From NCBI GenBank assembly GCA_036496555.1, contig DASXKY010000058.1:4115-68114 (forward strand): a DNA stretch of 64,000 bases, in the 5' to 3' direction. The stretch is from Burkholderiales bacterium. Its GTDB lineage: Bacteria > Pseudomonadota > Gammaproteobacteria > Burkholderiales > SG8-39. A model generated the notes under the pieces. The model was not told where the DNA came from, made no database searches, and saw only the letters and a list, made by a program, of their open reading frames with translations. Position 1 is the stretch's first letter; each line of letters opens with the position of its first letter. Made by a program: the position numbers and the translations under genes. Positions 41,281-57,508 of the stretch are shown piece by piece.

Positions 41281-41281
41281 C

Positions 41282-42493: not shown

Positions 42494-42555
42494 TCCGCGA
42501 CCCCGCGCTGTAACCCCCGCAAGGTCGACGCTCGGGCCGCAGGTACACTTCGGCC

Positions 42556-43485: not shown

Positions 43486-44630
43486 AAATCGCGCTGATCA
43501 GCCACTACTACCCGGCGCATCGGGGCGGCGTCGAACGCATCGCAGGCCAGCTCACGGAGCGGCTCGCGCGCGGCGGCGGGTTGCAGTTCGAATGGCACGC
43601 GAGCGACTGCGATCCGGCGCCGGCCCCGGCAGCAGGCATCGCCTGCGCGCCCGCTCGCAGCTGGAACGGCATCGAGCGCGGGCTCGGCCTGCCCTACCCG
43701 CTCTGGTCGCCGGCCGCGCTGCGCAAGCTCCTCCGCGCGGTGCGCTCGGCCGACGTGGTCCATCTGCACGACTGCCTGTACCTGCCGAACGTCGTCGCTT
43801 ATCTCGGCGCGCGAATCGCGCGGCGGCCGGTGCTCGTCACGCAGCACGTCGGCTGGGTACCCTACCGCAATCCGCTGCTGCGCCTCGCGCTCGCGCTCGC
43901 CAACCGCGCGCTCGGCAACCTCGTACTCGGCGGCGCCTGCCGCGTCGTCTTCGAGAGCGACGCGGTGCGGCGCTACTTCGCGCGCTTCGTACGCTTTCGC
44001 GCCGCGCCCGAGCTGGTGGCGAACGGGGTCGACACGCAGGTCTTCGCTCCCGCCGATCCCGCCGCGCGGCGCAGGCTGCGGGCGGCCTTGGGCGCGGACG
44101 AGGCGACGCCGCTGCTCCTCTTCATCGGCCGCTTCGTCGAGAAAAAAGGCCTGCCGATACTCGGCGAGCTCGCCGCGCGCTTTCCGCGCGCGCGCTGGAT
44201 CCTCGCCGGCGCCGGGCCGGTCGATCCCGCGCGCTGGCAGCGACCGAACGTGCAGGTGATCCACGCGCCGCGGCCCGACGAGATCGCGCCGCTCTATCAG
44301 GCCGCCGACCTGTTCGTGCTGCCGAGCGTCGGCGAGGGCCTGCCGCTCGCGGTGCAGGAAGCGATGGCCTGCGGCACGCCGGCGCTGGTCGGCGACGAGA
44401 CCGCCGCAGCGTGCCCGCCGCAGGCCGAGGCGCCGATCCTGCACGAGCCGACCGGCGCCAGCGACGACGCGGCGCGCTGGGCGGCGCGGCTCGAGCGCCT
44501 GCTCGCCGACCCGGCCGCGCTCGCCGCGCTGCGGCCGCGCGTCGCCGCCTTCGCGCGCCGCGAATGGGCCTGGGAGCGCTGCGTCGAGCGCTACGCAGCG
44601 CTGCTGCGCGAGTGCGCAGCCGCGCGATGA
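43482..44630 (+). CDS. Glycosyltransferase family 4 (GT-B)
   Basis: MKIALISHYYPAHRGGVE and the EX7E region VLPSVGEGLPLAVQEAMACGTPAL. GTG start overlaps the epimerase stop. Confidence 0.88.
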   Translation: MKIALISHYYPAHRGGVERIAGQLTERLARGGGLQFEWHASDCDPAPAPAAGIACAPARSWNGIERGLGLPYPLWSPAALRKLLRAVRSADVVHLHDCLYLPNVVAYLGARIARRPVLVTQHVGWVPYRNPLLRLALALANRALGNLVLGGACRVVFESDAVRRYFARFVRFRAAPELVANGVDTQVFAPADPAARRRLRAALGADEATPLLLFIGRFVEKKGLPILGELAARFPRARWILAGAGPVDPARWQRPNVQVIHAPRPDEIAPLYQAADLFVLPSVGEGLPLAVQEAMACGTPALVGDETAAACPPQAEAPILHEPTGASDDAARWAARLERLLADPAALAALRPRVAAFARREWAWERCVERYAALLRECAAAR

Positions 44631-46300: not shown

Positions 46301-47886
46301 ACGGGCGGCGGCATCAGATGCAGCCGGTACCAGGTCCCTCGCTCCCCGCTGCCTCTCGGCGAGAGCGCCTCGAGCGTACGGCCGTAGTGGATGCTGAGAT
46401 GGCGCTGCAGCACGTGCAGCTGCCAGTAGTCGGCGATCAGGTCGAGATCCTTGCCTGCGAGCAGCACCGCGATCACGTCGCCCTCGCCGGTCGCGTCGCG
46501 CAGGGTCTTCAGCGCATAGGGCGCATAGGTGTGCACGGCCAGTGGATAGAGGCGAAGCGGGCAGCCGTCGCGTTGCGCCGAGAGCGGCCGGTAGAGCTCC
46601 TCGTAGGCGAGGCGCTCACCCCATACGACGTATAGCCCATCGCGCGGCAGGTTGCACAGCCGCGCACGCTGGTCGAGCTCCTCCGTGCGGTCGCCGGCGT
46701 TGCGCACGCCCAGCGCGGCCGCGAGCGCGAGCACCACGGCGACGGCGACCGCCGCTTCGCTCCGCGTCGCGCCGGCCGGGCGCGCGGCGAGCGCGAAAAG
46801 CAGGATGCCGGCGAGGAGCGGAATGTAGATGCGCATGGTGTTCGGCCGGCCGAGCACCAGCAGCGCGACCATCAGCACCGCGAAGCCGGCGAGCGACCAC
46901 CAACCCGCGCGCGTGCGCGCGCGCCAAACCGCGCAGGCGGCGAGCAGAAGCGGCGCGAGGAACGATTCGTTGGCGAAGGGCGCCGCGAACTCGGGCAGGC
47001 GCTGCACGTTCGACCACCACCACGCCGGTAGCGAGACGAAGCGGGTGAGCTCGAGCAGCCGGGCCGGCGGGAAGATGCGCGGGTCGGCGAAGAACCAGCC
47101 CTCGACCATGATCAGGTCGTTCGGCACGAAGCCTAGGCGCATCGCGTGCAGCGGGTCGTGCATGAGGTATTGCCGCAGCCCGTAGTCGGTGAAGAGCATG
47201 CGCGCCGGCTGCATGTCCATGAACGGCTGCCATTCGGGCGCGGCGTAGAACGCCTGGTCGTAGAGGGCGCTCGCGCCGAGGAGCAACGCCGCGCCCGCCA
47301 GCACCGCCGCGGTTCGCCACCAGCCGGCGCGCGGCGCGCCTAGCGGCGGCGCCAGCCAGAAAGGCGCCGTGACCGCGAGCACGAGCGCCGTCTCTGCGGC
47401 GCGCACCATTCCCCCGGCGACGAGCAGCGCGCCGGCGAGCGCCGCCCCCGGCGCGGTGCGCGCCGTGGCGAGGACCAGCGCGCCGGCGAGCGCAACCAGG
47501 CCCGCGACCACGGTGAACTGCGGGTACAGCGCCGCCGGCCCGAACACCGCCAGCAGGGCGGCCGCCGCGAGCGGCGTCGGCGCGCCGGCGCGCCAAAGGA
47601 AGCGCGCCGACACCGCGCCGGCGAGGGCCAGCAGCGCATACGTCATCAGGTCGTAGGCGCGGAACCCCCACGGCGTGCCGAGCGCACCGAGCAGCCTGCC
47701 GTAGGCGACCGAGAGGTAGAAGGTGCCCGGGCTCGGCGCTTCGGCGATGCCGTAGCCGTGCACGATCATCGCCATCATGGGATCGTCGACGGTCTGCCAG
47801 TAGGGATGGCCGAGCGCGAACGGCAGCAGGAGCGCCGCGGCGAGGGCTGCGCCTACGGCGAGCGCGGCGCGACCGCCTGCGCCCAT
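46261..47886 (-). CDS. Polytopic membrane protein, GT-C-like glycosyltransferase candidate (541 aa)
   Basis: TM1, then a loop GHPYWQTVDDPMMAMIVHGYG (DD motif), many further TM segments, and a C-terminal soluble domain. Last gene of the minus-strand operon. Start overlaps the GT2 stop (TGATG). Confidence 0.55.
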   Translation of the reverse strand: MGAGGRAALAVGAALAAALLLPFALGHPYWQTVDDPMMAMIVHGYGIAEAPSPGTFYLSVAYGRLLGALGTPWGFRAYDLMTYALLALAGAVSARFLWRAGAPTPLAAAALLAVFGPAALYPQFTVVAGLVALAGALVLATARTAPGAALAGALLVAGGMVRAAETALVLAVTAPFWLAPPLGAPRAGWWRTAAVLAGAALLLGASALYDQAFYAAPEWQPFMDMQPARMLFTDYGLRQYLMHDPLHAMRLGFVPNDLIMVEGWFFADPRIFPPARLLELTRFVSLPAWWWSNVQRLPEFAAPFANESFLAPLLLAACAVWRARTRAGWWSLAGFAVLMVALLVLGRPNTMRIYIPLLAGILLFALAARPAGATRSEAAVAVAVVLALAAALGVRNAGDRTEELDQRARLCNLPRDGLYVVWGERLAYEELYRPLSAQRDGCPLRLYPLAVHTYAPYALKTLRDATGEGDVIAVLLAGKDLDLIADYWQLHVLQRHLSIHYGRTLEALSPRGSGERGTWYRLHLMPPPVQSSVQTSPYSPW

Positions 47887-48803
47887 CACCGCCGCCAGAC
47901 TTTGCGCACGATGGTAAAGGGCCGGCGCTTGGTCTCGACGAACATCTTCGACAGGTAGATGCCGATCACGCCGAGAAACGAGATCATCAGGCCGCCGAGA
48001 AGCCAGACCGACGCGATGACCGAAGTCCAGCCCGCCGGCTGCGACACCAGCCACCAGCGCAGGAAGACGTAGACCAGGTAGCCGACGGCGAGGGCCGAGA
48101 TCGCCGCGCCGAAGTAGAAGATGGCGATCAGCGGCAGGTTGCTGAACGAGGTGATCGAGTTCACCGCCAGCGTGAGCTTGCGCCGCAGCGTATAGGTCGA
48201 CTGGTTGCCGTGGAAGCCCTTGCGCACCGCGAGCGGCACCTGCTCGAAGCCGGCCATCGACCACAGGCCGGGCAGGAACAGCTCGCGCTCGCGGAAGCGC
48301 AGCAGGCTCCGCACGTAGCGCCGCGTCATCAGGCGCGCGGTGAGCATGTTGGGCGCCACCGGCTGCGGCGACAGGCGGTTGAACAGCCACCAGAACAGCT
48401 CGCCCGAGGCGCGCTCGAACCACCGGCCTTTGCGCGCCACCTGCACGCCGTACACCACATCGCAGGCGCGGTGCTCCATCTCGGCGGCGAACTGCGTCAG
48501 CAGCTCTGGCTCCTCCTCGAGGTCGACGTCGATCAGGAAAACGCGCTCGCCGCGCGCGTAGGCGAGCCCGGTCATCATCGCCTTGTGGTGGCCGAAGTTG
48601 CGCGACAGGTCGACGCCGACCACGCGGGGGTCGGCGCGCTGCAGCTCGAGCACGCGCGCGAACGCGTCGTCGGGCGAGCCGTCGTTGACGAAGACGATCT
48701 CGAAGTCGTCGGTCAACGGCTGCGCGACGCGCACGATGCGCTCGTAGAACTCCCTCACGTACGGAGCCGAATGGAACAGCGTCGCGACGATCGACAGTTT
48801 CAT
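47886..48803 (-). CDS. GT2 polyprenyl-phosphate glycosyltransferase (GtrB/ArnC-like)
   Basis: KLSIVATLFHSAPYVREFYERI...EIVFVNDGSPDD...LSRNFGHHKAMMTGL...FLIDVDLEE, plus two C-terminal TM helices. It is codon 221 of track ORF 47886..49463. Confidence 0.88.
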   Translation of the reverse strand: MKLSIVATLFHSAPYVREFYERIVRVAQPLTDDFEIVFVNDGSPDDAFARVLELQRADPRVVGVDLSRNFGHHKAMMTGLAYARGERVFLIDVDLEEEPELLTQFAAEMEHRACDVVYGVQVARKGRWFERASGELFWWLFNRLSPQPVAPNMLTARLMTRRYVRSLLRFRERELFLPGLWSMAGFEQVPLAVRKGFHGNQSTYTLRRKLTLAVNSITSFSNLPLIAIFYFGAAISALAVGYLVYVFLRWWLVSQPAGWTSVIASVWLLGGLMISFLGVIGIYLSKMFVETKRRPFTIVRKVWRR

Positions 48804-49498
48804 GGGGCGCGGAGCATAGCAGAGCGCAGACGGAACAGGACCTCGAGCCGGTTCGGAAAAGCGGCGCCCATCGCGCCGCTCCTGTAGCGCGGCCCGACGA
48901 CGCGCTCGGCGTCGCAGCGCGCCGCGTCGAACAGCGCGCGCCACTGCGCATCGGTCAGGTAGCGCGCCCACACCATGCCGCCGAAGGGCAGGTTGCCGAT
49001 GAAGTCGAGCGCGGCGAGCCGCGCGTGGTCTAGCGCGGACGCCGCCAGGTGGTCCTTGATGACGATGCAGCGCCCGCCGGTGACGCGCACCGTTTCGGCG
49101 AGCAGCGGCGCGCGCGCCGCGAGCGGCACGTGGTGCAGCACGTTGCTGAAGATCGCGCAATCGAACGCGCCGTCGCCGTGCGGGATGCGCCTGCCGTCGA
49201 AGGTGGAGTGCGCGACGCCGAGGCCGGGCAGGAAGCGGTCGACCACGTCGATCGCGGTGACGTGCTTGCCCGGGAAGAAGCGCGCGATCGTCTCGCCGAC
49301 CAGGCCGCTGCCCGCGCCGACGTCGATCACGCGGCACGGCCCTTCGGGCATCAGGGCGGCCAGGTCCTTCAGCTGCCGCAGCAGGTAGCGCGGGCGGCGC
49401 CAGCGGTAGACCGGCTGGCGCGCGGCGAGCGCGCGCTCGAGCTCGGCGTCCGGCGGGAACCATGCCGGCGCGGGCCGCGGCGCGAGCTCGGCGATCAT
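48800..49498 (-). CDS. Class I SAM-dependent methyltransferase
   Basis: RVIDVGAGSGLVGE (motif I) and AFDCAIFSNVLHHV. It is codon 134 of track ORF 48800..49897. ATGA overlaps at both ends. Confidence 0.8.
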   Translation of the reverse strand: MIAELAPRPAPAWFPPDAELERALAARQPVYRWRRPRYLLRQLKDLAALMPEGPCRVIDVGAGSGLVGETIARFFPGKHVTAIDVVDRFLPGLGVAHSTFDGRRIPHGDGAFDCAIFSNVLHHVPLAARAPLLAETVRVTGGRCIVIKDHLAASALDHARLAALDFIGNLPFGGMVWARYLTDAQWRALFDAARCDAERVVGPRYRSGAMGAAFPNRLEVLFRLRSAMLRAP

Positions 49499-49869
49499 GC
49501 CTGCCCCCGCTTCACGCGCAGCGCCCAGCGATTGGCGATCCAGTTGAAGAGGAACAGCAGCGCGGTGACGGCGGGCGCGGCGAGCGGCACCGGCACGCCC
49601 AGGAGGTCGACGAATACGTAGAGCCCCGCGAGCGACAGCGGATAATTCGCGCTCACGGTGGCGGCGTAGCGCGCGAAGGACGCGTGACCGCGCGCGGCAC
49701 CCGGGAAGGTCCAGCGCGTATGCAGCACGTAGCCGAACACGGTCACCACCGCGAGCGACACCAGCGAGGAGACGAAATAGTGCCAGCCGGCGAAATCGCC
49801 GCCGATCATGATCACGTTGTGCAGCAGCGCGCAGGCGAGGCCGACGCCGAGAAAGCGGCCGATCGCCAT
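49495..49869 (-). CDS. GtrA-family membrane protein (lipid-linked sugar translocation)
   Basis: 124 aa, four TM. RFLGVGLACALLHNVIM...GYVLHTRWTF...LFLFNWIANRWALR is the GtrA pattern. Confidence 0.85.
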   Translation of the reverse strand: MAIGRFLGVGLACALLHNVIMIGGDFAGWHYFVSSLVSLAVVTVFGYVLHTRWTFPGAARGHASFARYAATVSANYPLSLAGLYVFVDLLGVPVPLAAPAVTALLFLFNWIANRWALRVKRGQA

Positions 49870-50555
49870 CAGGGCAGCCGCCTGAAGAGCGCGACATAGA
49901 CGCAGGCGTTGTCGTTCACCACTGCGCGCGGCGTGAGGCGATCCTCGAGCCAGGCCTTGAAGCTGAAGAGGCAGGCGGCCGTCGCCGCGAGCAGGCCGCC
50001 CGCCACCGGCAGGCGCCGCAGGAAGTGGCACAGGCCGACCGACCGCAGCACGGTGGTCCAGGCGAGCGGGCCGGCGACCGCCTGCATCGCCTGCAGCGCG
50101 AAGCCGCCCGCCTCCACCTCGCGCTTCAGGCCCTCGCCGGTCCAGCGGCGGTAGTCGCCTGGATGCGGGTGGTAGAGCCAGGCGCCGTGGGTCGAGAGCA
50201 GCAGCCAGCCTCCCGGTGCGAGCACACGATGCGCCTCGCCGAGGTAGCGCGGCACGTCCCACACGTGCTCGAGCACCTGGAACGAGGCGACGAGGTCGGC
50301 GCTCGCGTCGCCCGCGCCGAGGCGGCCGTCCGCGGCGATCGCCACCTCATGGCCGCCGTCCAGGTCGGCGCCGCTGTAGTGCGCCCCGGCGGCTGCGAAC
50401 CAGCGCTCGTAGGGACGCTCGCCGCAGCCGAAATCGAGCACGCGTCGGCCCTTCAGCTCGAGCGGCGCGAGCGCCGCCCGGATCGCGTGCGCGAGCCCGC
50501 TCAGCACGTACCACTCGGGCTGCCAGGGACGCGGCGCGCTGCGGCTCGCATTCAC
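49869..50555 (-). CDS. Class I SAM-dependent methyltransferase (second copy, different sequence)
   Basis: RVLDFGCGERPY (motif I), ADLVASFQVLEHV and LAPGGWLLLST. GTG at 50555 overlaps the upstream stop (GTGA). Confidence 0.8.
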   Translation of the reverse strand: MNASRSAPRPWQPEWYVLSGLAHAIRAALAPLELKGRRVLDFGCGERPYERWFAAAGAHYSGADLDGGHEVAIAADGRLGAGDASADLVASFQVLEHVWDVPRYLGEAHRVLAPGGWLLLSTHGAWLYHPHPGDYRRWTGEGLKREVEAGGFALQAMQAVAGPLAWTTVLRSVGLCHFLRRLPVAGGLLAATAACLFSFKAWLEDRLTPRAVVNDNACVYVALFRRLP

Positions 50556-52513
50556 CGGCGCAGGCCCTCGCGGCAGGCTTCGGCGAGCGGCGCCGGCACG
50601 CCGCTCTCCCAATCCTCGACGCGCCCGAGCGGGAAATGGCGCAGCTCGAAGAACGGCGCCAGCGCGAGCGCGCCGCCGCGCGTTTCGAGGCGCGCCTCCA
50701 GGCCGGCATAGTTGCGCGACCACTCGCTGCCCATGCGCTCGGTGACCGCGGTCTGTCCGCGGAACACGCCGGGGCAGCTCCTCTCCATGCGATCGAACAG
50801 CGTGGACATGCGTCGCTCCTCAGCCTGCTCCTCGGCGCTCCACGCGCCGGGACGCAGGCCGCACGATACCAGCGCCAGCGGCGGCGGCCGCAGGGAACTG
50901 TCCTCGGTGACCAGCAGGTTGGCAAAACCCGATAAGGCATCGTCGCGGCGCGGCCGCCAGGGGATGGCGAAGCAGTCATCCGGGTCGACGCGAAAGCCGT
51001 AGCGCAACAGCGTCGCGTCGTAGTTCTCGACCGTCTCCGCGCGCGGCCGGCCGTCGCGCTGCAGGCGCAGTGCGCGCCCGAGCGTGCGCACGCGGCCCGC
51101 GTGCCGCGCCTCGAGTGCCCGCAGGCGCTTGGCGCCCTGCTCGAGGCTGTGCTGGCCGCGCAGGTTGACGAAGGAGGAGTCCGGATGCAGGAACGGCGCG
51201 ACCGCGGCCATCGACTGCGTCTCGATGGTGAGGTAGAGAGCCGCTTCGCGGCGTGCGCGCTCCGGCACCTGCCAGCCGAACCAGCGCTCCGACCAGCGGT
51301 CGACCATGAAGTAGCGTGTGGGCGAGATGAGCGCGCAGGCGGTCACCTGCGCGACGAGCAGCACGAGGAGCGCGCCGCGCGCGTAGCGGCCGAGCAGGCG
51401 CGCGGCGAGCAGCGCGGCGAGCGGTCCGGCGAGCAGCAGGAGGAGCAGGCCGTAGCGCGCGTTGCCCGAGGTCGCGAGCCAGAGCGCATAGGCGGCGGCG
51501 AAAAACCCAGCGAGCCGCAAGTCGAGCGGCGCCAGGGCGCGGCCGGGCGCGCCGGCGGGCCGCACGCGCCGTGCGATGGCGAGCGCAAGCAAGCCGAGGG
51601 CAAGGAGCACGAGCGCCGCGAAGCGCAGATCCGGTGCGCTGATCTCGGCGTAGGTCATGCTGTCGGGCGAAAGGATGCGCAGCGGGAACAGCAACGCGTC
51701 GCCGAGGCCGCGCGGCGCGAAGCGCTCGGCGCCGATGTTGATCGGCGGGAAATCGGGCGAGCGGAACCAGCCGTTGAAGAGCGGGAAGAACGGGTTGCCG
51801 AACGCGCGCCACAACGCGACGACGGTCGGTCCGGCCAGGGCCGCGACGGCGATCGTGCCGCCGGCGGCGTAGGCGGCGAGCGCGCGCCAGCGCAAGCCGA
51901 GAAGCGGCAGCGCCGCCAGCGCGAAGAGCGCGTTCGAGTACTTCAGCGCCGCGGCGGCGCCGAAGAGGAGGCCCGCAAGCGCGGCGCGGCGCGGCGCCGG
52001 CATCCCGCCTTCCCCGGCGAGCAGCAGCACGGCGCCCAGCATCGGCACGGTGAGCAGCGGGTCGAGGAAGGAGGTGCCGACGGTCGCGGCAAAGACCGCG
52101 CCGGCGGCGCCGAGGGCGGCGCCGAGCGCCGAAAGGAGCGCGCGCTCGCGCGGCGGCTGATCGGCAAAGAGGCGGCTCGCGAGCAGGTAGAGCAGCACGA
52201 TATTGGCGGCGTGGACGAGCGCGAGCACGGCCGACACCACGGCGCTGTGCCAGCCGGCCGAGACCATCCAGTAGAACGGCAGGTACCCCAGCGGATTGAG
52301 ATAGCTTTGCGCGCTGGCGGCGAAGTAGTCGCGCTCGAGGCCGCCGTTCAGGAATGCGTAGGCGACGTAGTAGTGATAGTGCAGCAGGTCCCAGTTGAGG
52401 TCCTTGCCGGCGTACAGCGTCCACACCACGGCGAGCAACGCCGCCGCGAGCGAGAAGCCGCGCGCGCCAAGCAGCGAGACCACCTTGAATCCGTCAAACC
52501 ACCCCTTGAACAA
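50552..52513 (-). CDS. Polytopic membrane protein, GT-C-like candidate (653 aa); paralogue of 57509..59440
   Basis: TTG start preceded by AAGGGGGG. N-terminal KDLNWDLLHYHYYVAYAFLNGGLERDYFAASAQSYLNPLGYLPFYW, then about 10 or more TM segments, and a roughly 200-aa Cys-containing C-terminal domain. Confidence 0.65.
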   Translation of the reverse strand: MFKGWFDGFKVVSLLGARGFSLAAALLAVVWTLYAGKDLNWDLLHYHYYVAYAFLNGGLERDYFAASAQSYLNPLGYLPFYWMVSAGWHSAVVSAVLALVHAANIVLLYLLASRLFADQPPRERALLSALGAALGAAGAVFAATVGTSFLDPLLTVPMLGAVLLLAGEGGMPAPRRAALAGLLFGAAAALKYSNALFALAALPLLGLRWRALAAYAAGGTIAVAALAGPTVVALWRAFGNPFFPLFNGWFRSPDFPPINIGAERFAPRGLGDALLFPLRILSPDSMTYAEISAPDLRFAALVLLALGLLALAIARRVRPAGAPGRALAPLDLRLAGFFAAAYALWLATSGNARYGLLLLLLAGPLAALLAARLLGRYARGALLVLLVAQVTACALISPTRYFMVDRWSERWFGWQVPERARREAALYLTIETQSMAAVAPFLHPDSSFVNLRGQHSLEQGAKRLRALEARHAGRVRTLGRALRLQRDGRPRAETVENYDATLLRYGFRVDPDDCFAIPWRPRRDDALSGFANLLVTEDSSLRPPPLALVSCGLRPGAWSAEEQAEERRMSTLFDRMERSCPGVFRGQTAVTERMGSEWSRNYAGLEARLETRGGALALAPFFELRHFPLGRVEDWESGVPAPLAEACREGLRR

Positions 52514-52531
52514 CCGCCCCCCTTGCCTGCG

Positions 52532-54571
52532 CTAGTTCTTCAGACGCGCCTCCAGCGCCTGCAGCGCCGCCGCGTCGCCTTTGTTGCGCAGCAGGTCCGT
52601 CAGCACGATGAGCGCGGTGTTTTCCCGCACCGGCCACAGCGAAATGGCGGTCTGCAGGTCGTCGATCGCGCCGGCCTCATCGCCGGCGCGCAACCGCATG
52701 TGCCCGCGCAGCTCGAAATAACGCGCCTGGTAATTCTTCGGCGGGTCGCTCGGCATGCCGAGGCGCACGCGCTCGAGCAGCCGCGCCGCGTCCGCGGCCG
52801 AGTAGCCCTTCTCTTCGCCGAGCATGCCCTCCAGGAGCCCGAGCGCGCCGTAATAGTCCTCGGCGAGCGCCGCGGCATGGCGCGCCGCGCGCGCATCGAG
52901 CGCCTGCCCGCGGCCCTTGCGCAAGGCGAGCAGCCGGGCGTACTTGCGCCGCAGCTCGCCCTGCAGCGCCTCGTCCCATGCGCTGTCGCCGCGGACATTG
53001 AGGAGGTCATCCTCGAGGAAGCGCAGGAAGCTCTCCGGCAGCTCGCCCGGCGTGACGGCCGTGCCGGGCTTGCGATCGAGCACCAGGTACAGCCAGTAGT
53101 TGGTGCGCGACCAATCGGTGAAATAGGACTCGCTGAAGGTCGCGACGGCGATGACGCCGCGCTCGGCCTCGACGTTGCGTCGCAGCTGGTCCTTCATGCC
53201 CTGCGCCGTGATGCGCAGCGGATGGAACATGCGGTTGCCTAGCGTGAGCCCGGCGGGCTGCACCAGCGTCAGGTCGGGCCGCCGCCCCTCGATCAGGTGG
53301 AAGTACGCCATCGGGATGAGGTCCCATTCGCCGCGCGCCGCGACGATGGCGTCCTTCGGCAGCGCATCCATCAGCGTCTTCACGTAGCGCCCGGACCATT
53401 GCGAGCCGTCGCGCAGGTTGCGCTCGAGGCCGAGGCCGAGGATCGCCGCGAGCAGCACGGCGCAGGCCGCGGCGGTGGGCGCAGGCCGCAGCTTCTCGCG
53501 CAGCCGCGCGAAGCCGAGCGCCATCCAGATCGCGCCGATGCCGTACGCCGGCAGCGGATAGACGTGGAACATGTGCTTGTGCAGCCCGTCGTAGTCGAAG
53601 GCGAGCACGAGCAGCAGCACCACCGACGGGCCGAGAAAAGCGAGCGTCAGGCCGAGCGCGACGCGCGTCCCCCAGGCGCGCCACTGCAGCGCGAAGCCGG
53701 CGGCGGCGAGCAGGCCGCCCGCGAGCGCGAACTGGTAGAAGAACTCGCGCCAGAAGAAGACCAGGAAATTGAGGTGATCGAGCCAGGTCGACGTGTAGGA
53801 GAAGTCCACCTCGCCGTAACCCCTGCGACCGAGGAAGAACCAGATCTCGCGCCACGATTCGAGCGGGCCGTAGAAGCTGACCGGCAGCGGCGCCCATGAG
53901 CGCACCACCAGCCAGACGTAGGGCAGCACGCCGAGCAGGAACAGGGCCGCGAGGAGGAAGAATCGGCGGCGGATCTCCTGCGCGCGCGGCCACAGCAGCA
54001 CCGCGATGCCCGGCGCGGCGAGGAGCATCAGCGGGTAGTGGTTGGCGAGGCTCATGCCGGCCACCGCCGCGAGCAGCGGCAGCACGCGGCCGTTCGCCGG
54101 CGGGCCTTCGGCGGGCGCAGCGCGTAGCGCGAGGTACAGCACCGAGAACAAGAACAGCGTGTTGAGCGTGTAGACCTCGGCGATGATGGCCTGCGACCAG
54201 TAGACCGGCGAGAGGCCGAGGCCGAGCGCGGCAAGCCAGGCAGGCAGGCGTCCGTCGACCAGCTGCCGCACGCACAGCCACAGCACGCCGCAGCTCAGGC
54301 CTCCGAACAGCGCGCTCAGGAGGTGCACGCGGTAGGCGACCGAGCCGAAGGGCAGCATCGAGAAGAGATGGCCGGCGAGGGTGAACAGCGGATAGCCCGG
54401 CGGATGCTCGATGCCGAGGAAATAGCTCGACATCACGAACAGGCCGTCGTCTTCCAGCGCGACCGAGCGCGGCGCAGTCGCCGCGTAGAGCGCGAACAGC
54501 GCCACGGCGATCGCCGCCGCCTGCAGCCAGTCGGCCCTGTCCGGCTGCCGCGGCGTCGCGCGCAGCGTCAT
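52532..54571 (-). CDS. DUF2723/TMEM260-type GT-C membrane protein with C-terminal TPR domain
   Basis: SVALEDDGLFVMSSYFLGIEHPPGYPLFTLAGHLF is the DUF2723 signature as I recall it. Multi-TM, with a TPR-like C-terminus. ATG at 54571 (codon 42 of the track ORF) overlaps the upstream stop (ATGA). Confidence 0.78.
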   Translation of the reverse strand: MTLRATPRQPDRADWLQAAAIAVALFALYAATAPRSVALEDDGLFVMSSYFLGIEHPPGYPLFTLAGHLFSMLPFGSVAYRVHLLSALFGGLSCGVLWLCVRQLVDGRLPAWLAALGLGLSPVYWSQAIIAEVYTLNTLFLFSVLYLALRAAPAEGPPANGRVLPLLAAVAGMSLANHYPLMLLAAPGIAVLLWPRAQEIRRRFFLLAALFLLGVLPYVWLVVRSWAPLPVSFYGPLESWREIWFFLGRRGYGEVDFSYTSTWLDHLNFLVFFWREFFYQFALAGGLLAAAGFALQWRAWGTRVALGLTLAFLGPSVVLLLVLAFDYDGLHKHMFHVYPLPAYGIGAIWMALGFARLREKLRPAPTAAACAVLLAAILGLGLERNLRDGSQWSGRYVKTLMDALPKDAIVAARGEWDLIPMAYFHLIEGRRPDLTLVQPAGLTLGNRMFHPLRITAQGMKDQLRRNVEAERGVIAVATFSESYFTDWSRTNYWLYLVLDRKPGTAVTPGELPESFLRFLEDDLLNVRGDSAWDEALQGELRRKYARLLALRKGRGQALDARAARHAAALAEDYYGALGLLEGMLGEEKGYSAADAARLLERVRLGMPSDPPKNYQARYFELRGHMRLRAGDEAGAIDDLQTAISLWPVRENTALIVLTDLLRNKGDAAALQALEARLKN

Positions 54572-55662
54572 TCGCGCGAGCGCGCCGCCGCGCCCCAGGT
54601 GAACGAAGCCGTGGTGAAGAAGTTCCAAAACGCGGCGGTGAGCGCGCCGACGATCCCCGCCAGCCAGTACGTCCCCGAATGCAGGTACAGCCACTCGGCG
54701 ACGGCGAGGTTGACGATCGAGCCGATGCCGCAGGCGAGATAGAAGCTGACGAGCGCGCGCCAGACCTGCCGGCCGCGCACGCGCTGGTCGGCGTAGGTGA
54801 AGGCATTGTTGAGGAAGAAGTTGCTGGTCATCGCGGCCAGCGTGGCGAGCGCCTGGCTGGCGAGGAACTGGCCGCCGCTCGCCTGGAACACCGCGGTCAG
54901 CACCGCGAGGTGCACCCCGACGCCGGTGACGCCGACTGCGCAGAACAGGAAGAAGCGCGCCGGCAGCAGCCGGCCGAAGAGATGGTAGAGGAGCAGCACG
55001 AAGAACTCGGCCATCACGCGCAGGCCGAGCTTGCTCTCGCCGCGCTGGCGGCTGCGCATGCGGTACGGCACCTCCGAGATGCGCACCTCGCTTCGCGCCG
55101 CGGCAATCAGGTCGAGCAGGATCTTGAAGCCGCGGCCGTACAGGCGCCGCACCACGCGCTCGAGGAAGCGGCGGCGCACCATGAAGAAGCCGCTCATCGG
55201 ATCGGTGATGCCGCCGGCGAGCGAGCGGCCGAAGAAGGTGGCGAGACGGCTCGCGCCGACGCGATGCGCCGAGAGCTCGCCGGTGCTGCCGCCCTCGAGG
55301 TAGCGGCTCGCGTTGACGATATCGTCGTCGCCGGACTTGAGGCGCTCGAGCATCTGCGGCAGGAGGCGCTCGTCGTGCTGCATGTCGGCGTCGATCACGG
55401 CGATGTACGGCGCCGAGCTCGCCAGCATGCCCTCGACGCAGGCGGAGGCGAGGCCACGGCGCCCGATGCGCTGCAGGCAGCGCACGCGCGCGTCGCGCTG
55501 CGCGCGCTCGCGCACCAGCTGCTCGCTGCCGTCGTCGGCGTCGTCGACGACGACGATGGTTTCCCAGTCGCGGCCTTCAAGCGCGCGCTCGAGCGCCTCG
55601 AGGAGCGTGGGAATGTTCTCGCGCTCGCGGTAGGCGGGCACTACCACCGTAAGCTCCGGCAT
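54568..55662 (-). CDS. GT2 polyprenyl-phosphate mannose/hexose synthase (Dpm1-like) fused to a GtrA-like domain
   Basis: N-terminal part: LTVVVPAYRERENIPTLLEAL...VVDDADDGSEQL...IAVIDADMQHD. C-terminal four-TM part: FFLFCAVGVTGVGVHLAVL...MTSNFFLNNAFTY (GtrA pattern). Confidence 0.88.
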   Translation of the reverse strand: MPELTVVVPAYRERENIPTLLEALERALEGRDWETIVVVDDADDGSEQLVRERAQRDARVRCLQRIGRRGLASACVEGMLASSAPYIAVIDADMQHDERLLPQMLERLKSGDDDIVNASRYLEGGSTGELSAHRVGASRLATFFGRSLAGGITDPMSGFFMVRRRFLERVVRRLYGRGFKILLDLIAAARSEVRISEVPYRMRSRQRGESKLGLRVMAEFFVLLLYHLFGRLLPARFFLFCAVGVTGVGVHLAVLTAVFQASGGQFLASQALATLAAMTSNFFLNNAFTYADQRVRGRQVWRALVSFYLACGIGSIVNLAVAEWLYLHSGTYWLAGIVGALTAAFWNFFTTASFTWGAAARSRE

Positions 55663-55667
55663 GCGCG

Positions 55668-56813
55668 CTAGGTCTCGTTCATGCGCAGCAGGCTAAGAAG
55701 AAACGAGGCAAGCGAGACTTCCATCCCGCCGATCATCATGGTGGCGGCGGGGATGGTGTCGCGCATCACTACTCGCGGGTCGAGCGGCCCGAAGCCGCCT
55801 TCGCGCCATACCCAGAAAGCGCCAGCGCTCCACGCGAACCCCGTAACGGCCAGCGCCACGCCGGCGAGCAGCCCTCGTTCGAGCGTGAACAGGCCGAGCA
55901 ACCGCTCCAGGCCGGCCCGGCGCGGCAGCAGCCCCGCGTTCTGCGCCGCGACGCGCGCGAACAGGGCAAACAGACAGAGCTGCAGGCCAAGCAGGGTAGC
56001 GGAGGACGAATACAGCATGGTGTGGATGTCGAGGCCGGCGCCGCCGATGCGAAGCGGCGCGAAGTAAAGCGCGAACGTGAGTAGCGAGCCGAGCGTCAGC
56101 AACGCAATCCCGGGATACAGGAACAGCCAGCGCGGGCTGAAGAGCAGCAGGAAACGCAGGTGACGCCAGCCGTCGCGCCAGCTGCGCAGGTGCGGCGGCC
56201 GGCCGCGGCCGTCCGGCCGCAGCGTGGTGGGGACTTCGACGATGCGCCAGCCCGCCAGCGCCGCCTTTACCACCACCTCGCTCGCGAACTCCATCCCCGG
56301 GCTCTTCAGCCCGAGCGAAAGGATGCGGTCGCGGTCGAAGCCGCGCAGGCCGCAATGGAAGTCGCGCGCGACGCCGATGCGGAAGAACACCCGCCCGATG
56401 AGGGAGAGCACGGGATTGCCGAGATAGCGGTGCAACGGCGGCATCGCGCCGGGCTCGATGCCGCCCGTGAAGCGGTTGCCCATCACCAGCGGGTAGCCCT
56501 CGCGCAGCTTCTCGACGAAAGGCTCGAGACGGCTGAAGTCGTAGCTCTCGTCGGCGTCGCCCATGATGACGTACCTGCCCTGCGCCGCCTCGATCCCGGC
56601 GCGCAGGGCCGCGCCGTACCCGCGCTGCCTCACGCCCACCACGCGCGCCCCGGCGCGCTCGGCGAGGCTCTGCGAGCCGTCCTTCGAGCCGTTGTCGGCG
56701 ACGAGCACCTCGCCGTCGATGCCGGCGCGCTCGAGGAAGGCCCGCGCGGTGGCCACGCAGCGCGCGACCGTGGCCGCTTCGTCCAGGCAGGGCATCAGAA
56801 TCGTGAGTTCCAT
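55668..56813 (-). CDS. GT2 glycosyltransferase with C-terminal multi-TM region
   Basis: LTILMPCLDEAATV...VLVADNGSKDGS...VIMGDADESYD (DxD motif), followed by at least four TM helices. Confidence 0.86.
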   Translation of the reverse strand: MELTILMPCLDEAATVARCVATARAFLERAGIDGEVLVADNGSKDGSQSLAERAGARVVGVRQRGYGAALRAGIEAAQGRYVIMGDADESYDFSRLEPFVEKLREGYPLVMGNRFTGGIEPGAMPPLHRYLGNPVLSLIGRVFFRIGVARDFHCGLRGFDRDRILSLGLKSPGMEFASEVVVKAALAGWRIVEVPTTLRPDGRGRPPHLRSWRDGWRHLRFLLLFSPRWLFLYPGIALLTLGSLLTFALYFAPLRIGGAGLDIHTMLYSSSATLLGLQLCLFALFARVAAQNAGLLPRRAGLERLLGLFTLERGLLAGVALAVTGFAWSAGAFWVWREGGFGPLDPRVVMRDTIPAATMMIGGMEVSLASFLLSLLRMNET

Positions 56814-56836
56814 CCGGTCGCGCGGTCAGTGAAGGC

Positions 56837-56869
56837 AAAAAAAAAGGTACCCCACAGGGTACCTTTTTT
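56837..56869 (-). terminator. Strong rho-independent terminator downstream of pilA (bidirectional geometry)
   Basis: GGTACCC (56846..56852) / GGGTACC (56857..56863) stem with a 4-nt loop. It is flanked by a 9-A run on the plus strand, which reads as 9 U after the stem on the minus strand, and by 6 T on the other side. Confidence 0.8.
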
Positions 56870-56884
56870 CCGGTCTTGAGCCGG

Positions 56885-57352
56885 TTAGCCGCGGCAGGAG
56901 CCGGGCAGGTATTTCGTGTTGACGGTGGTGCCGTCGGTCGTGCTGCCGCAGCGCCAGCCGAACAGGCCCGAACCGGAGTTCGTGGTCCACACGGCAGCGG
57001 TCGACCCGTTCGACAGCGGGATCAGCGTCACCAGCGAGGCGTTCACCGCCTGCGAGATGTTCTGGATCGTCGCCGTCACGGCGCCGTCCTGCGAGGTCGA
57101 AAGGCCGGCCACGTATTTCGACGCAACGCCGCCTTCGCAACCCCAGCTGTTGGCGGCCGGCTGGCTGCCACCCGACTGGTACACCTCGGTGATCGACGTA
57201 CGGCACGCACTCATGGCGAGAATAACTTCCGACATCTTCGCCCGCACCGTGTAGTCCTGATACGCCGGCAGCGCGACGGCCGCCAGAATGCCGATAATCG
57301 CGACCACGATCATCAGTTCGATCAGCGTAAAGCCCTTCTGCAGTTGTTTCAT
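56885..57352 (-). CDS. pilA: Type IVa major pilin
   Basis: [34 protein letters not shown] class III signal with a conserved Glu5. C-terminal disulfide loop [22 protein letters not shown] at 57352 (codon 51 of the track ORF) follows AAGGAG. Confidence 0.93.
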
Positions 57353-57406
57353 TTGCTTCTCCTTCTCCCGTTGTTGTTTAGAGGCATGAATGCCCGAGAC
57401 AGATAC

Positions 57407-57422
57407 TGCACAAGCTATGCCA
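57407..57422 (-). promoter_or_regulatory. Candidate sigma-54 (-24/-12) promoter of pilA
   Basis: The minus strand reads TGGCATAGCTTGTGCA. The GG and GC doublets are spaced exactly as in the consensus TGGCACG-N4-TTGCW. It lies about 55 nt upstream of the pilA ATG. Confidence 0.6.
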
Positions 57423-57508
57423 AGGCTTGAATCTCGCAATTTCGTTAGGAAAGTCGCGGTTTTGGCGAGGTCTGGGCGACCAAATTCGGCCCGGGGTGAC
57501 AACTTTCG

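What the first reader, a model, noticed from the sequence alone, without database searches (positions are those of the whole stretch)
56814..57422. pilA has its own sigma-54 promoter and terminator, and the 9-gene glycosylation operon starts 23 nt past that terminator
**What the sequence shows:**
- A TGGCAT-N-TGTGCA element with exact -24/-12 spacing lies at 57407..57422.
- A strong AAGGAG ribosome-binding site precedes the pilA ATG at 57352.
- A GC stem with a 9-U tail (56837..56869) begins 16 nt after the pilA stop.
- The next gene, a GT2, starts at 56813. Only 23 nt separate it from the terminator, and this gap contains no recognisable promoter or Shine-Dalgarno sequence.

**Inference:** the downstream operon (56813 down to 46261) is probably expressed by partial read-through of the pilA terminator or from a promoter inside pilA. 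Either would tie its expression, at a lower level, to pilin expression, as reported for pilA-tfpO in P. aeruginosa. This is the strongest sequence-level link between the pilin and the glycosylation genes.
Basis: partly seen in the sequence, partly recalled or inferred. Interest (0 to 1): 0.65.

Follow-up and report, generated by a model that had tools for sequence, protein, structure and literature searches.

The report
Pilin gene, leaky terminator, glycosylation operon
A pilus-subunit gene in an uncultured soil Burkholderiales bacterium has its own sigma-54 promoter and a strongly conserved terminator hairpin, with a nine-gene sugar-transfer operon starting 23 bases later; this layout is already known from Pseudomonas, so it is a solid but ordinary new example.

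Summary
- a sigma-54 -24/-12 element (57422..57407)
- an AAGGAG ribosome-binding site
- pilA (57352..56885)
- an A6 / 7-bp stem / U9 hairpin (56869..56837)
- the GT2 start codon at 56813, after a 23-nt spacer with no Shine-Dalgarno sequence

**Conservation.** All 13 co-directional pilA-GT2 loci (the window plus 12 GTDB genome loci) have a hairpin plus T-run in this position. The sigma-54 motif is present in 84 of 87 related pilA upstream regions, and a TGAC-N7-GTCA palindrome, a candidate activator site, in 50 of 84. The hairpin is the best-conserved stretch of the locus.

In related soil contigs the same hairpin is followed either by this GT2 (start codon 16-51 nt after the T-run) or by a TfpW-like GT-C/TPR gene (0-13 nt after it). 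A separate promoter cannot fit in these spacers, so downstream expression has to cross the terminator.

**Known precedent.** This matches the pilin / attenuating terminator / accessory-gene cassette shown experimentally in P. aeruginosa.

**Verdict.** Observation confirmed and interpretation supported. It is a new member of a known kind and of modest interest. No transcript data were available.

The parts
57497..57511 (-). Palindrome TGACGAAAGTTGTCA (TGAC-N7-GTCA), a candidate binding site for a PilR/Npa-type enhancer-binding protein. Its centre is about 84 nt upstream of the -24 GG. It overlaps the TGA stop of the upstream GT87-like gene.
   Evidence: The same N7 palindrome occurs in 50 of 84 related pilA upstream regions, mostly 87-124 nt upstream of the -24 element. 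It is also present in the divergent loci L017, L031 and L059.
57407..57422 (-). Sigma-54-type -24/-12 promoter element TGGCAT-AGCTT-GTGCA.
   Evidence: The motif NGGCAY-N5-TTGC lies 37-70 nt before the pilA ATG in 84 of 87 unique related loci. The window has G where 97% of relatives have T at motif position 12.
57359..57364 (-). Shine-Dalgarno sequence AAGGAG of pilA, 6 nt before the ATG.
   Evidence: Anti-SD duplex -8.8 kcal/mol.
56885..57352 (-). pilA, a type IVa major pilin of 155 aa with leader [14 protein letters not shown]. The C-terminal part is Ser/Thr-rich and carries a Cys-Cys loop.
   Evidence: Pfam Pilin 2.9e-16 and N_methyl 5.1e-10. NCBIfam prepilin N-terminal domain.
56837..56869 (-). 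Intrinsic terminator: A6, stem GGTACCC, loop UGUG, stem GGGTACC, then U9.
- Conserved in all 13 co-directional genome loci, with 3 compensatory base pairs.
- 92% mean pairwise identity, against 45-61% for the flanking spacers.
- More than 100 metagenome contigs carry it directly after pilA.
56814..56836 (-). 23-nt spacer between the U-tract and the GT2 start. It has no Shine-Dalgarno sequence and no room for a promoter.
55668..56813 (-). GT2a, 381 aa. A GT2 catalytic domain followed by C-terminal transmembrane helices; it resembles polyprenyl-phosphate hexose synthases.
   Evidence: Pfam Glycos_transf_2. NCBIfam AglJ, PpgS and Dol-P-hexose transferase, all below their cut-offs. Best PDB match is Pyrococcus DPMS 5mlz, followed among others by GtrB and ArnC.
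54568..55662 (-). GT2b, 364 aa. GT2 domain plus GtrA/DPMS transmembrane domain. It starts 5 nt after the GT2a stop.
52532..54571 (-). TMEM260-like GT-C glycosyltransferase, 679 aa. Its ATG overlaps the GT2b stop (ATGA).
   Evidence: Pfam TMEM260-like 2.5e-28 and PMT_2. PDB match to human protein O-mannosyltransferase TMEM260 (9rql) at 5e-32. Start coordinate.
50552..52513 (-). GT87-like polytopic membrane protein, 653 aa, a putative GT-C. It has a TTG start preceded by GGGGGG.
   Evidence: Pfam GT87 3.9e-05, just under the cut-off. No PDB or NCBIfam hit. A GT87-like gene also lies next to the GT2a homologue in more distant betaproteobacterial loci, with pilA adjacent in L024, L031, L037, L059 and L080.
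49869..50555 (-). SAM-dependent methyltransferase 1. Its GTG overlaps the preceding stop (GTGA).
49495..49869 (-). GtrA-family small membrane protein. Its start overlaps the preceding stop by 1 nt.
48800..49498 (-). SAM-dependent methyltransferase 2. ATGA overlap with the preceding stop.
47886..48803 (-). GT2c, 305 aa. Resembles the undecaprenyl-phosphate glycosyltransferases PgfS and ArnC. ATGA overlap with the preceding stop.
46261..47886 (-). Last operon gene, a 541-aa polytopic membrane protein with no family match. Its start overlaps the preceding stop by 1 nt.
57509..59440 (-). Upstream GT87-like paralogue, 643 aa. It ends 87 nt before the -24 element, and no terminator lies between it and the pilA promoter.
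   Evidence: In the 12 co-directional genome loci compared, no separate copy lies upstream of pilA.

Best explanation
**Proposed mechanism.**
1. pilA is transcribed from its own sigma-54 promoter. An NtrC-family enhancer-binding protein (PilR/Npa-type) activates it by binding the TGAC-N7-GTCA palindrome about 84 nt upstream.
2. Most transcripts end at the A6 / 7-bp stem / U9 intrinsic terminator that starts 16 nt after the pilA stop. This gives an abundant monocistronic pilin mRNA capped by a hairpin.
3. A minority of polymerases read through into the nine-gene, translationally coupled operon that begins 23 nt later.
4. That operon encodes lipid-linked-sugar synthases (three GT2s), GT-C transferases (one TMEM260-type, one GT87-like), a GtrA-family protein and two methyltransferases.
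5. The first gene of the operon has no Shine-Dalgarno sequence, so translation lowers the enzyme-to-pilin ratio further.

The result would be low-level enzyme expression coupled to pilin expression.

**Shown here:** the sequence elements, their geometry, their conservation and the protein family assignments.

**Inferred:** RpoN and activator dependence, partial termination, and pilin as the substrate.
For: - The elements are at the stated coordinates.
- The sigma-54 motif is conserved in 84 of 87 related pilA upstream regions.
- The N7 palindrome is present in 50 of 84.
- A hairpin plus T-run sits between pilA and the GT2 in 13 of 13 co-directional genome loci, which were found through the GT2 protein and so independently of the hairpin. 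Distant relatives (L037, L080) have different stems and there are 3 compensatory pairs.
- The hairpin is the best-conserved stretch of the locus.
- All 92 metagenome contigs with enough upstream sequence carry pilA right before the hairpin.
- Accessory genes start 0-51 nt after the T-run, so a separate promoter has no room.
- No sigma-70-like match lies between the pilA start and the GT2 start in 12 of 13 loci.
- pilA has a strong Shine-Dalgarno sequence and GT2a has none.
- Six of the eight internal operon junctions have overlapping start and stop codons.
- In P. aeruginosa a terminator after pilA attenuates accessory-gene expression. Mutating its U-stretch raised TfpY levels, and expressing a second pilin in trans, expected to lower PilSR signalling, lowered both native PilA and TfpY (PMC11841053). 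pilA-tfpW-tfpX are co-transcribed (bioRxiv 10.1101/2020.04.19.049825).
- A betaproteobacterial pilE uses RpoN, an upstream activator sequence and the activator Npa (PMC6528607).
Against: - There are no transcript data for this MAG or its relatives.
- A perfect U9 tail with an A-tract looks like a very efficient terminator, so read-through could be close to zero without an added factor.
- The sigma-70 scan finds no promoter anywhere in 46000..64000. It is insensitive in this 68.6% GC genome, so its silence counts for little.
- The window's -12 region is GTGC where 97% of relatives have TTGC.
- No enhancer-binding-protein gene, identified by the GAFTGA motif, is in the window.
- No IHF site was recognised.
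- In other betaproteobacteria (L017, L024, L031, L059) pilA and the GT2 are divergent. Those GT2 genes must have their own promoters.
- The upstream HD-GYP / SpdSyn-like / GT87 genes have no terminator before pilA and could contribute sigma-54-independent transcription.
Confidence: 0.7

Rival explanations
1. The operon has its own promoter. It would lie either inside the pilA coding region or overlap the hairpin, with the -10 in the 3' arm or T-run (TACCTT) and the start site in the 23-nt spacer. Expression would then not be tied to PilR or sigma-54.
For: - Divergently arranged relatives show that the GT2 can run from its own promoter.
- The promoter scan is insensitive in this genome, so a non-consensus promoter cannot be excluded.
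- Strict conservation of GGTACCTTTTTTTTT could in principle reflect a DNA-level signal.
Against: - By my own reading of the sequence, the best hexamer pair overlapping the hairpin matches only about 6 of 12 positions. No match of 8 of 12 or better lies between the pilA start and the GT2 start in the window or in 11 of the 12 genome relatives.
- The palindrome, the UUCG tetraloop, the A-tract and the compensatory stems in L037 and L080 point to an RNA hairpin.
- In relatives with the start codon 0-13 nt after the T-run, a start site downstream of the hairpin is essentially impossible.
- A promoter inside pilA would still have to read through the terminator.
Confidence: 0.1
2. The hairpin terminates almost completely by default. 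The operon would be expressed only when read-through is actively induced, for example by a factor that binds the conserved hairpin or by an antitermination signal. It would be a regulated switch rather than a fixed leak.
For: - The stem and U9 are conserved at the sequence level across species whose flanking genes are only 76-88% identical at the DNA level, which is more than a generic terminator needs.
- The A-tract plus a perfect U9 suggests high intrinsic efficiency.
Against: - No candidate factor or alternative anti-terminator fold was found. The surrounding fold is unremarkable (z = -1.97).
- There is no Rfam match.
- The spacers on both sides are not conserved.
- In the P. aeruginosa precedent the terminator is interpreted as a fixed attenuator that sets stoichiometry (PMC11841053).
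Confidence: 0.1
3. The hairpin acts mainly after transcription. A full-length pilA-operon mRNA would be made and cleaved, with the hairpin protecting the pilA segment from 3' exonucleases. Differential mRNA stability, rather than termination, would then set the ratio.
For: - The stable tetraloop hairpin sits right after the pilA stop.
- From my own knowledge, segmental mRNA stability of this kind is established for pap and puf operons.
Against: A run of exactly 9 U directly after the stem, conserved in all 11 close genome loci, is the signature of termination. A stabiliser hairpin does not need it. The two roles are not mutually exclusive.
Confidence: 0.1
4. The transcriptional layout is real, but the operon does not act on pilin. 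It would modify other periplasmic or surface proteins or envelope glycans, and its position after pilA would simply borrow a strong promoter.
For: - The GT2a family is widespread in phyla where no pilin gene is nearby.
- Several betaproteobacterial loci with the GT2 and the GT87-like gene have no pilin within 6 kb (L002, L015, L023).
- No enzyme here is an equivalog of a known pilin glycosyltransferase.
Against: - The pilin-GT2 linkage recurs in two orientations across Betaproteobacteria: 17 of the 80 genome loci.
- In sister contigs the same slot after the hairpin holds a GT-C/TPR protein with TfpW-like architecture.
- The third gene matches a protein O-mannosyltransferase at 5e-32.
- The pilin has Ser/Thr-rich C-terminal segments.
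Confidence: 0.25

Closest known systems
P. aeruginosa pilin-accessory gene cassettes (pilA-tfpO group I, pilA-tfpW-tfpX group IV, pilA-tfpY group III, pilA-tfpZ group V) with a Rho-independent terminator after pilA
   Same: - The major pilin gene has an RpoN-type promoter with an activator site, as the PilSR-controlled pilA of P. aeruginosa does.
- An intrinsic terminator follows the pilin gene directly.
- Accessory genes lie on the same strand immediately downstream with no promoter of their own.
- In groups I and IV the accessory genes glycosylate pilin.
- Attenuation at the terminator and PilSR-linked co-regulation of pilA and tfpY were shown experimentally (PMC11841053). Co-transcription of pilA-tfpW-tfpX is stated in bioRxiv 10.1101/2020.04.19.049825.
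   Different: - The cargo is a nine-gene, 10.5-kb operon that opens with a DPMS-like GT2, not a single oligosaccharyltransferase.
- It contains no Wzy_C (TfpO/PglL) domain.
- Its GT-C enzyme is TMEM260-type, and homology to TfpW was not tested.
- The host is an uncultured Burkholderiales MAG with no experimental data.
pilA-tfpW clusters linked to D-arabinofuranose biosynthesis genes in Pseudomonas indica and Kingella denitrificans (bioRxiv 10.1101/2020.04.19.049825)
   Same: The pilin gene is physically clustered with a GT-C transferase and with the genes that make the lipid-linked sugar donor.
   Different: - The donor genes there are DprE1, DprE2 and UbiA-type (decaprenyl-phospho-arabinose). 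Here they are GT2 polyprenyl-phosphate hexose-synthase-like genes plus methyltransferases.
- There the GT-C gene directly follows pilA. Here a GT2 does.
RpoN / IHF / Npa (PilR-type) control of pilE in commensal Neisseria (PMC6528607)
   Same: A betaproteobacterial major pilin gene with a sigma-54 promoter and an upstream activator sequence.
   Different: - No IHF site was recognised here.
- The activator is unidentified and is not encoded in the window.
- I could not compare the TGAC-N7-GTCA palindrome with the Npa site.
[quoted passage not shown]
   Same: A pilin gene followed by a hairpin terminator and then an accessory gene.
   Different: The accessory genes there are single genes and are not glycosylation operons. 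I did not read the primary papers.
Dol-P-Man synthase plus TMEM260/PMT protein O-mannosylation (PDB 5mlz, 9rql)
   Same: The same enzyme logic: a GT2 makes a polyprenyl-phosphate sugar, and a GT-C enzyme transfers it to Ser/Thr on the far side of the membrane. Sequence matches are 1.2e-07 and 5.1e-32.
   Different: The system here is bacterial. The sugar and the acceptor are unknown. There are extra GT-C paralogues and methyltransferases. NCBIfam scores are all below the equivalog cut-offs.

Membership tests
Sigma-54 (RpoN)-dependent promoter | -24 GG and -12 GC separated by exactly 10 nt | tested here: met
   TGGCATAGCTTGTGCA at 57422..57407.
Sigma-54 (RpoN)-dependent promoter | Match to the extended consensus TGGCAC-N5-TTGCW | tested here: met
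   9 of the 11 specified positions match. The differences are T for C at motif position 6 and G for T at position 12. About half of relatives share the T at position 6, while position 12 is T in 97% of relatives.
Sigma-54 (RpoN)-dependent promoter | Conserved position upstream of the orthologous gene | tested here: met
   84 of 87 unique pilA upstream regions carry the motif 37-70 nt before the ATG. The divergent loci carry it too.
Sigma-54 (RpoN)-dependent promoter | Upstream binding site for an enhancer-binding protein | tested here: inconclusive
   The TGAC-N7-GTCA palindrome lies at 57511..57497, and 50 of 84 relatives have it. Which protein binds it is unknown, and no GAFTGA-motif gene is in the window.
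Sigma-54 (RpoN)-dependent promoter | IHF site between the activator site and the promoter (common but not obligatory) | tested here: not met
   The only match to WATCAANNNNTTR has 2 mismatches and overlaps the -24 element.
Sigma-54 (RpoN)-dependent promoter | Transcription depends on RpoN and an activator | not testable with these tools
   Needs rpoN and pilR mutants or in vitro transcription.
Rho-independent (intrinsic) terminator | GC-rich stem-loop followed directly by a U-tract | tested here: met
   A 7-bp stem with 5 G-C pairs, a 4-nt loop and then U9. Folding energy is -11.0 kcal/mol, or -17.2 with the A/U extension. The consensus scan tool did not call it.
Rho-independent (intrinsic) terminator | Located just after a stop codon and conserved as a structure | tested here: met
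   The T-run ends 43-56 nt after the pilA stop in 13 of 13 loci. There are 3 pairs with compensatory changes, and L037 and L080 have different stems.
Rho-independent (intrinsic) terminator | Forms RNA 3' ends in vivo or in vitro, with a measurable efficiency | not testable with these tools
   Needs Term-seq or in vitro transcription.
Pilin-accessory gene cassette with attenuating terminator | Type IVa major pilin gene | tested here: met
   Pfam Pilin and N_methyl, a short leader and the GFTLIE motif.
Pilin-accessory gene cassette with attenuating terminator | Accessory gene on the same strand directly after the terminator, with no room for its own promoter | tested here: met
   The spacer is 23 nt here and 0-66 nt in relatives.
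Pilin-accessory gene cassette with attenuating terminator | Co-transcription by partial read-through | not testable with these tools
   No transcript data. Inferred from geometry and from PMC11841053.
Pilin-accessory gene cassette with attenuating terminator | The accessory product acts on the pilin | not testable with these tools
   Only indirect support: recurrent linkage, the match to a protein O-mannosyltransferase, and a TfpW-like gene in the same slot in sister contigs.
TfpO/PglL O-oligosaccharyltransferase system | Wzy_C-domain oligosaccharyltransferase next to pilA | tested here: not met
   None of the nine products has a Wzy_C hit.
TfpW-type pilin glycosyltransferase | GT-C membrane protein with a DDX motif in the first periplasmic loop and a C-terminal TPR domain, encoded directly after pilA | tested here: inconclusive
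   The gene directly after pilA is a GT2. The third gene is a GT-C (TMEM260-like) with an E-DD-G motif, but Pfam gives no TPR hit at E <= 0.01. No TfpW sequence was available to compare.

The most novel reading that the evidence does not exclude
The nine genes behind the pilA terminator could be a pilin O-glycosylation pathway that has not been described.
- It would be built from DPMS-like polyprenyl-phosphate sugar synthases, a TMEM260-type protein O-mannosyltransferase, GT87-like GT-C enzymes and methyltransferases.
- It would be distinct from the TfpO/PglL, TfpM and TfpW systems.
- In soil Burkholderiales the near-invariant GGUACC-C(UUCG)G-GGUACC-U9 hairpin would serve two roles: an expression valve, and the fixed 3' boundary of exchangeable pilin/accessory cassettes. 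At least two alternative modules occupy the slot behind it.
Probability: 0.35. Interest if true: 0.55.

Novelty: new member of a known kind. Interest (0 to 1): 0.3.

Why it matters
- **Testable design.** It gives a concrete way for a bacterium to make very large amounts of pilin but only catalytic amounts of the enzymes thought to modify it. Both would come from one regulated promoter and be tuned by one terminator and a weak ribosome-binding site.
- **Reach of the known logic.** The pilin-terminator-accessory arrangement known from Pseudomonas extends to abundant uncultured soil Burkholderiales, with a much larger glycosylation cargo.
- **Practical marker.** The conserved hairpin can be used to find pilin cassettes in metagenomes.
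- **Ecology.** Pilin glycosylation protects P. aeruginosa against pilus-specific phages (bioRxiv 10.1101/150227). Swappable accessory modules behind a fixed terminator could matter for phage-host dynamics in soil.
- **Limit.** None of this changes current understanding. It is a well-supported new example.

Tried and rejected
- **Promoter/terminator scan tool.** It found no sigma-70-like site anywhere in 46000..64000 and did not call the pilA hairpin. It is therefore uninformative here, so I read and folded the hairpin directly.
- **Rfam on 56500..57800.** Only sub-threshold hits to unrelated terminator-like hairpins.
- **IHF consensus.** No convincing site.
- **GAFTGA/Walker motif search for a sigma-54 activator gene in the window.** None found.
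- **Second TGAC-N7-GTCA palindrome at 18559..18573.** It lies in apparently coding DNA and is probably chance.
- **tblastn of the TfpW-like class-B protein against the window.** No homologue.
- **NCBIfam.** All hits to the glycosyltransferases fall below the curated cut-offs, so no equivalog names can be assigned.
- **Literature searches for a published PilR or Npa palindrome, or for this GT2/GT-C pilin cluster.** They gave only the general RpoN/activator-site model and the P. aeruginosa hallmarks (TGT-N11-AGA and GTCT elements). The TGAC-N7-GTCA site is therefore only a candidate.
- **Promoter overlapping the hairpin.** Considered and rejected as the main explanation: only about 6 of 12 hexamer matches by my own reading, and the hairpin features act at the RNA level.
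- **Alternative-frame ORF 56826..57206 running through the hairpin.** Not followed up; treated as spurious.
Full report
**Source.** The window has 68.6% G+C. The GT2 protein next to pilA is identical to a database protein labelled 'MAG TPA: Burkholderiales bacterium', from a 69,890-bp contig. The window therefore comes from an uncultured Burkholderiales genome. All features discussed lie on the minus strand.

**Observation**

Reading 57700..56600 on the minus strand confirms every element.
- **Sigma-54 element.** TGGCATAGCTTGTGCA occupies 57422..57407. GG and GC are separated by exactly 10 nt, and 54 nt lie between the motif and the pilA ATG.
- **pilA.** AAGGAG (57364..57359) lies 6 nt before the ATG at 57352. 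pilA ends with TAA at 56887..56885. It encodes a 155-aa type IVa pilin (Pfam Pilin 2.9e-16, N_methyl 5.1e-10).
- **Hairpin.** An A6 tract (56869..56864) begins 16 nt after the stop. Then come GGTACCC-tgtg-GGGTACC (56863..56846) and nine T (56845..56837). The stem-loop alone folds at -11.0 kcal/mol, and at -17.2 with the A/U extension.
- **GT2 start.** The next ATG is at 56813, after a 23-nt spacer. An in-frame TGA at 56828..56826 excludes a start further upstream. The identical database protein and most homologues are 381 aa long with full coverage.
- **Ribosome binding.** The spacer pairs with the anti-Shine-Dalgarno sequence at only -1.1 kcal/mol, against -8.8 for pilA.

**Is it more than chance?**
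- The degenerate sigma-54 pattern matches only here in 64 kb. However, 19 of 100 shuffles give at least one match, so the motif alone proves little.
- The hairpin pattern never appears in shuffles.
- Runs of six or more A or T are rare in the window. Only two of them belong to a hairpin-plus-T-run terminator, and the pilA one is the longer.
- The consensus scan tool does not report the hairpin. I suspect it extends the stem through the A:T pairs and uses up the T tail.
- The same tool finds no sigma-70-like promoter anywhere in 46000..64000. Its silence in the 23-nt gap therefore carries little weight.

**Comparative evidence from genomes**

I searched one genome per species with the GT2 protein, which does not depend on the hairpin. 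This returned 80 loci.
- Twelve have a pilin gene directly upstream on the same strand. Ten are Burkholderiales-type MAGs with 74-78% GT2 identity. The other two are Caenimonas sedimenti (L037) and Variovorax sp. WDL1 (L080), at 59-63%.
- All twelve, like the window, have a hairpin plus T-run ending 43-56 nt after the pilA stop.
- The ten close loci share the stem GGTACC and exactly nine T, while the spacers on both sides are not alignable.
- L037 and L080 have different GC stems. An RNAalifold consensus shows three pairs with compensatory changes.
- Mean pairwise identity is 92% for the hairpin plus T-run. It is 88% for the pilA 5' end, 76% for the rest of pilA and 79% for the GT2 5' end. The two spacers are at 61% and 45%.
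- The hairpin is therefore under selection in its own right.

**Comparative evidence from metagenomes**

- Of 107 contigs with the GGTACCC-type stem, all 92 with enough upstream sequence have a pilA match ending just before the hairpin.
- Downstream there are two main classes.
  - **Class A** (42 hairpins): the same GT2, starting 16-51 nt after the T-run, usually behind a G-rich Shine-Dalgarno-like stretch.
  - **Class B** (37 hairpins): a membrane protein of about 560 aa, starting 0-13 nt after the T-run. It has a VFDD motif and C-terminal TPR repeats (Pfam TPR families, weak PMT_2). This is the architecture described for the pilin arabinosyltransferase TfpW. It has no homologue in the window.
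- A few contigs have two pilA copies, each with its own hairpin (L103, L112, L123, L180).
- This scan was selected on the hairpin sequence. It shows what the hairpin is associated with, not how conserved it is.

**Promoter and activator site**
- The motif NGGCAY-N5-TTGC lies 37-70 nt before the pilA ATG in 84 of 87 unique upstream regions. GG and TTGC are 97-100% conserved.
- The window deviates at one well-conserved position: G instead of T at motif position 12.
- A palindrome, TGAC-N7-GTCA, occurs in 50 of 84 upstream regions, almost always with N7 spacing. It mostly lies 87-124 nt upstream of the -24 element.
- The window's copy, TGACGAAAGTTGTCA, is at 57511..57497 and overlaps the stop codon of the preceding gene.
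- The same palindrome is present in betaproteobacteria where pilA and the GT2 are divergent (L017, L031, L059).
- This fits the RpoN, upstream-activator-sequence and PilR-type-activator model shown for pilE of commensal Neisseria (PMC6528607) and for P. aeruginosa pilA (PMC6058289).
- The binding protein is not identified. No activator gene is in the window, and I found no IHF site.

**The downstream operon**

Nine genes run from 56813 to 46261.

| Gene | Coordinates | Assignment |
|---|---|---|
| GT2a | 56813..55668 | GT2 with C-terminal transmembrane helices |
| GT2b | 55662..54568 | GT2 plus GtrA/DPMS transmembrane domain |
| TMEM260-like | 54571..52532 | GT-C glycosyltransferase |
| GT87-like | 52513..50552 | polytopic membrane protein, putative GT-C |
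| Methyltransferase 1 | 50555..49869 | SAM-dependent |
| GtrA-family | 49869..49495 | small membrane protein |
| Methyltransferase 2 | 49498..48800 | SAM-dependent |
| GT2c | 48803..47886 | PgfS/ArnC-like GT2 |
| Membrane protein | 47886..46261 | no family match |

- Of the eight internal junctions, six have overlapping start and stop codons. The other two have gaps of 5 and 18 nt. This is a translationally coupled operon.
- GT2a's best solved-structure match is Pyrococcus dolichol-phosphate mannose synthase. Further down the list are GtrB and ArnC.
- The TMEM260-like protein matches human protein O-mannosyltransferase TMEM260 at 5e-32.
- The cluster therefore looks like a pathway in which GT-C enzymes transfer lipid-linked monosaccharides, quite possibly to a protein.
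- That the target is pilin remains an inference. It rests on recurrent linkage in two orientations (17 of 80 genome loci have a pilin nearby), on the TfpW-like gene occupying the same slot in sister contigs, and on the Ser/Thr-rich C-terminal part of the pilin.

**Mechanism**

Geometry is the strongest argument. A promoter plus leader cannot fit in 23 nt, let alone in 0-13 nt. Any transcript reaching the accessory gene must therefore pass through the hairpin and U-tract, wherever it began.

The simplest model has three steps.
1. The sigma-54 promoter drives pilA.
2. Most transcripts stop at the terminator.
3. A minority continue into the operon.

In the window, the missing Shine-Dalgarno sequence of GT2a would lower enzyme output further.

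This is the model already proposed and tested for P. aeruginosa.
- A Rho-independent terminator after the pilin gene is described as a common feature of the pilin-accessory cassettes.
- Mutating the U-stretch raised TfpY levels.
- Expressing a second pilin in trans, which is expected to lower PilSR signalling, lowered both native PilA and TfpY.
- Similar terminators are cited for D. nodosus, E. corrodens and X. campestris (PMC11841053).
- pilA-tfpW-tfpX are co-transcribed, and in some species pilA-tfpW is clustered with sugar-donor genes (bioRxiv 10.1101/2020.04.19.049825).

**Rival explanations**
- **Own promoter overlapping the hairpin.** By my own reading the best hexamer pair matches about 6 of 12 positions. 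The palindrome, tetraloop and compensatory stems point to RNA-level function.
- **Regulated antitermination.** The near-invariant stem and perfect U9 make this worth testing, but I found no alternative fold or known RNA family.
- **mRNA processing and stabilisation.** This probably also occurs, but it does not explain the conserved U9.
- **Substrate other than pilin.** The transcriptional layout could be real while the enzymes act on something else.
- **Transcription from upstream.** There is no terminator between the upstream HD-GYP / SpdSyn-like / GT87-like genes and pilA. Transcription from upstream that does not depend on sigma-54 may therefore add to the total, but it would still meet the same terminator.

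**Verdict**

It is a new member of a known kind, the pilin / attenuating terminator / accessory-gene cassette.

What this work adds:
- the breadth of conservation in soil Burkholderiales
- the candidate activator palindrome
- the two alternative accessory modules behind one conserved hairpin
- the unusual cargo, a TMEM260-type and GT87-type lipid-linked-sugar pathway

Interest is modest (0.3). The more novel reading, a previously undescribed pilin glycosylation pathway in exchangeable cassettes, is possible but untested.

Noticed in passing
L086, L092, L102, L125, L152, L168 and about 30 other metagenome loci (downstream of the pilA hairpin): An alternative accessory gene follows the same pilA hairpin. 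It encodes a membrane protein of about 560 aa with a VFDD motif and C-terminal TPR repeats, the architecture described for TfpW. Its start codon lies only 0-13 nt after the T-run, so the usual Shine-Dalgarno position falls in the U-tract or the stem. It has no homologue in the window.
   Followed up: partly
L103, L112, L123, L180: Two pilA copies lie on one contig, each followed by its own copy of the conserved hairpin. In L112, L123 and L180 they are in tandem; in L103 they are about 4 kb apart. In L103, L112 and L180 the second copy is followed by the GT2.
   Followed up: no
window 57509..59440 (minus strand): A GT87-like paralogue of the operon's fourth gene sits directly upstream of pilA. 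Its start overlaps the stop of the 995-aa fused membrane/spermidine-synthase-like gene (62424..59437). In the 12 co-directional genome loci compared, no separate copy lies upstream of pilA. The glycosylation-type genes therefore flank pilA on both sides here.
   Followed up: partly
window 62445..63914 (minus strand); also L001, L004-L010, L013 and many metagenome loci: A GAF plus HD-GYP protein, a likely c-di-GMP phosphodiesterase, is syntenic upstream of pilA in most relatives at 77-84% identity.
   Followed up: no
L004-L007, L082, L138, L140, L164, L176, L180, L182, L200 (between GT2a and GT2b): An insert of about 1.3-3.8 kb separates GT2a from GT2b in many relatives but is absent from the window. 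Its content was not identified.
   Followed up: no
L005, L008, L013, L014 and many class-A metagenome loci (between the T-run and the GT2a start): The spacers are G-rich and often form a small GC hairpin, with GGGG or GGAGG in the loop just before the start codon. The window lacks this and has no Shine-Dalgarno sequence at all.
   Followed up: partly
window 55668..56813 and loci L011-L079: The GT2a family is unusually conserved: 52-63% identity in Firmicutes, Actinobacteria, Acidobacteria, Planctomycetes, Cyanobacteria and others. Outside Betaproteobacteria no pilin gene is nearby. The precomputed annotation lists a second Pfam family, PF26629, that my Pfam scan did not report.
   Followed up: no
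window about 4243..4290 (minus strand): This is the only other hairpin-plus-T-run terminator in the 64-kb window (GGACCCCGGTT...AACCGGGGTCC followed by T8).
   Followed up: no
window 43592..46300 (plus strand) against 46261..47886 (minus strand): A convergent membrane-protein ORF overlaps the 3' end of the last operon gene by 40 nt. Its annotated N-terminal third is Arg/Ala-rich and probably not coding. It has no Pfam match.
   Followed up: no
window 56826..57206 (minus strand, alternative frame): A 126-aa ORF in another frame of pilA runs through the terminator hairpin and stops 12 nt before the GT2a ATG. It is probably spurious in this high-GC genome.
   Followed up: no
window 18559..18573: This is the only other TGAC-N7-GTCA palindrome in the window. 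It lies in apparently coding DNA and is probably chance.
   Followed up: partly
window 37463..38259 and 41225..43485 (plus strand): SoxY and SoxZ sulfur-oxidation genes, an HlyD-type membrane-fusion protein and an NAD-dependent sugar epimerase/dehydratase lie a few kb beyond the operon's end. The epimerase could supply a nucleotide sugar.
   Followed up: no
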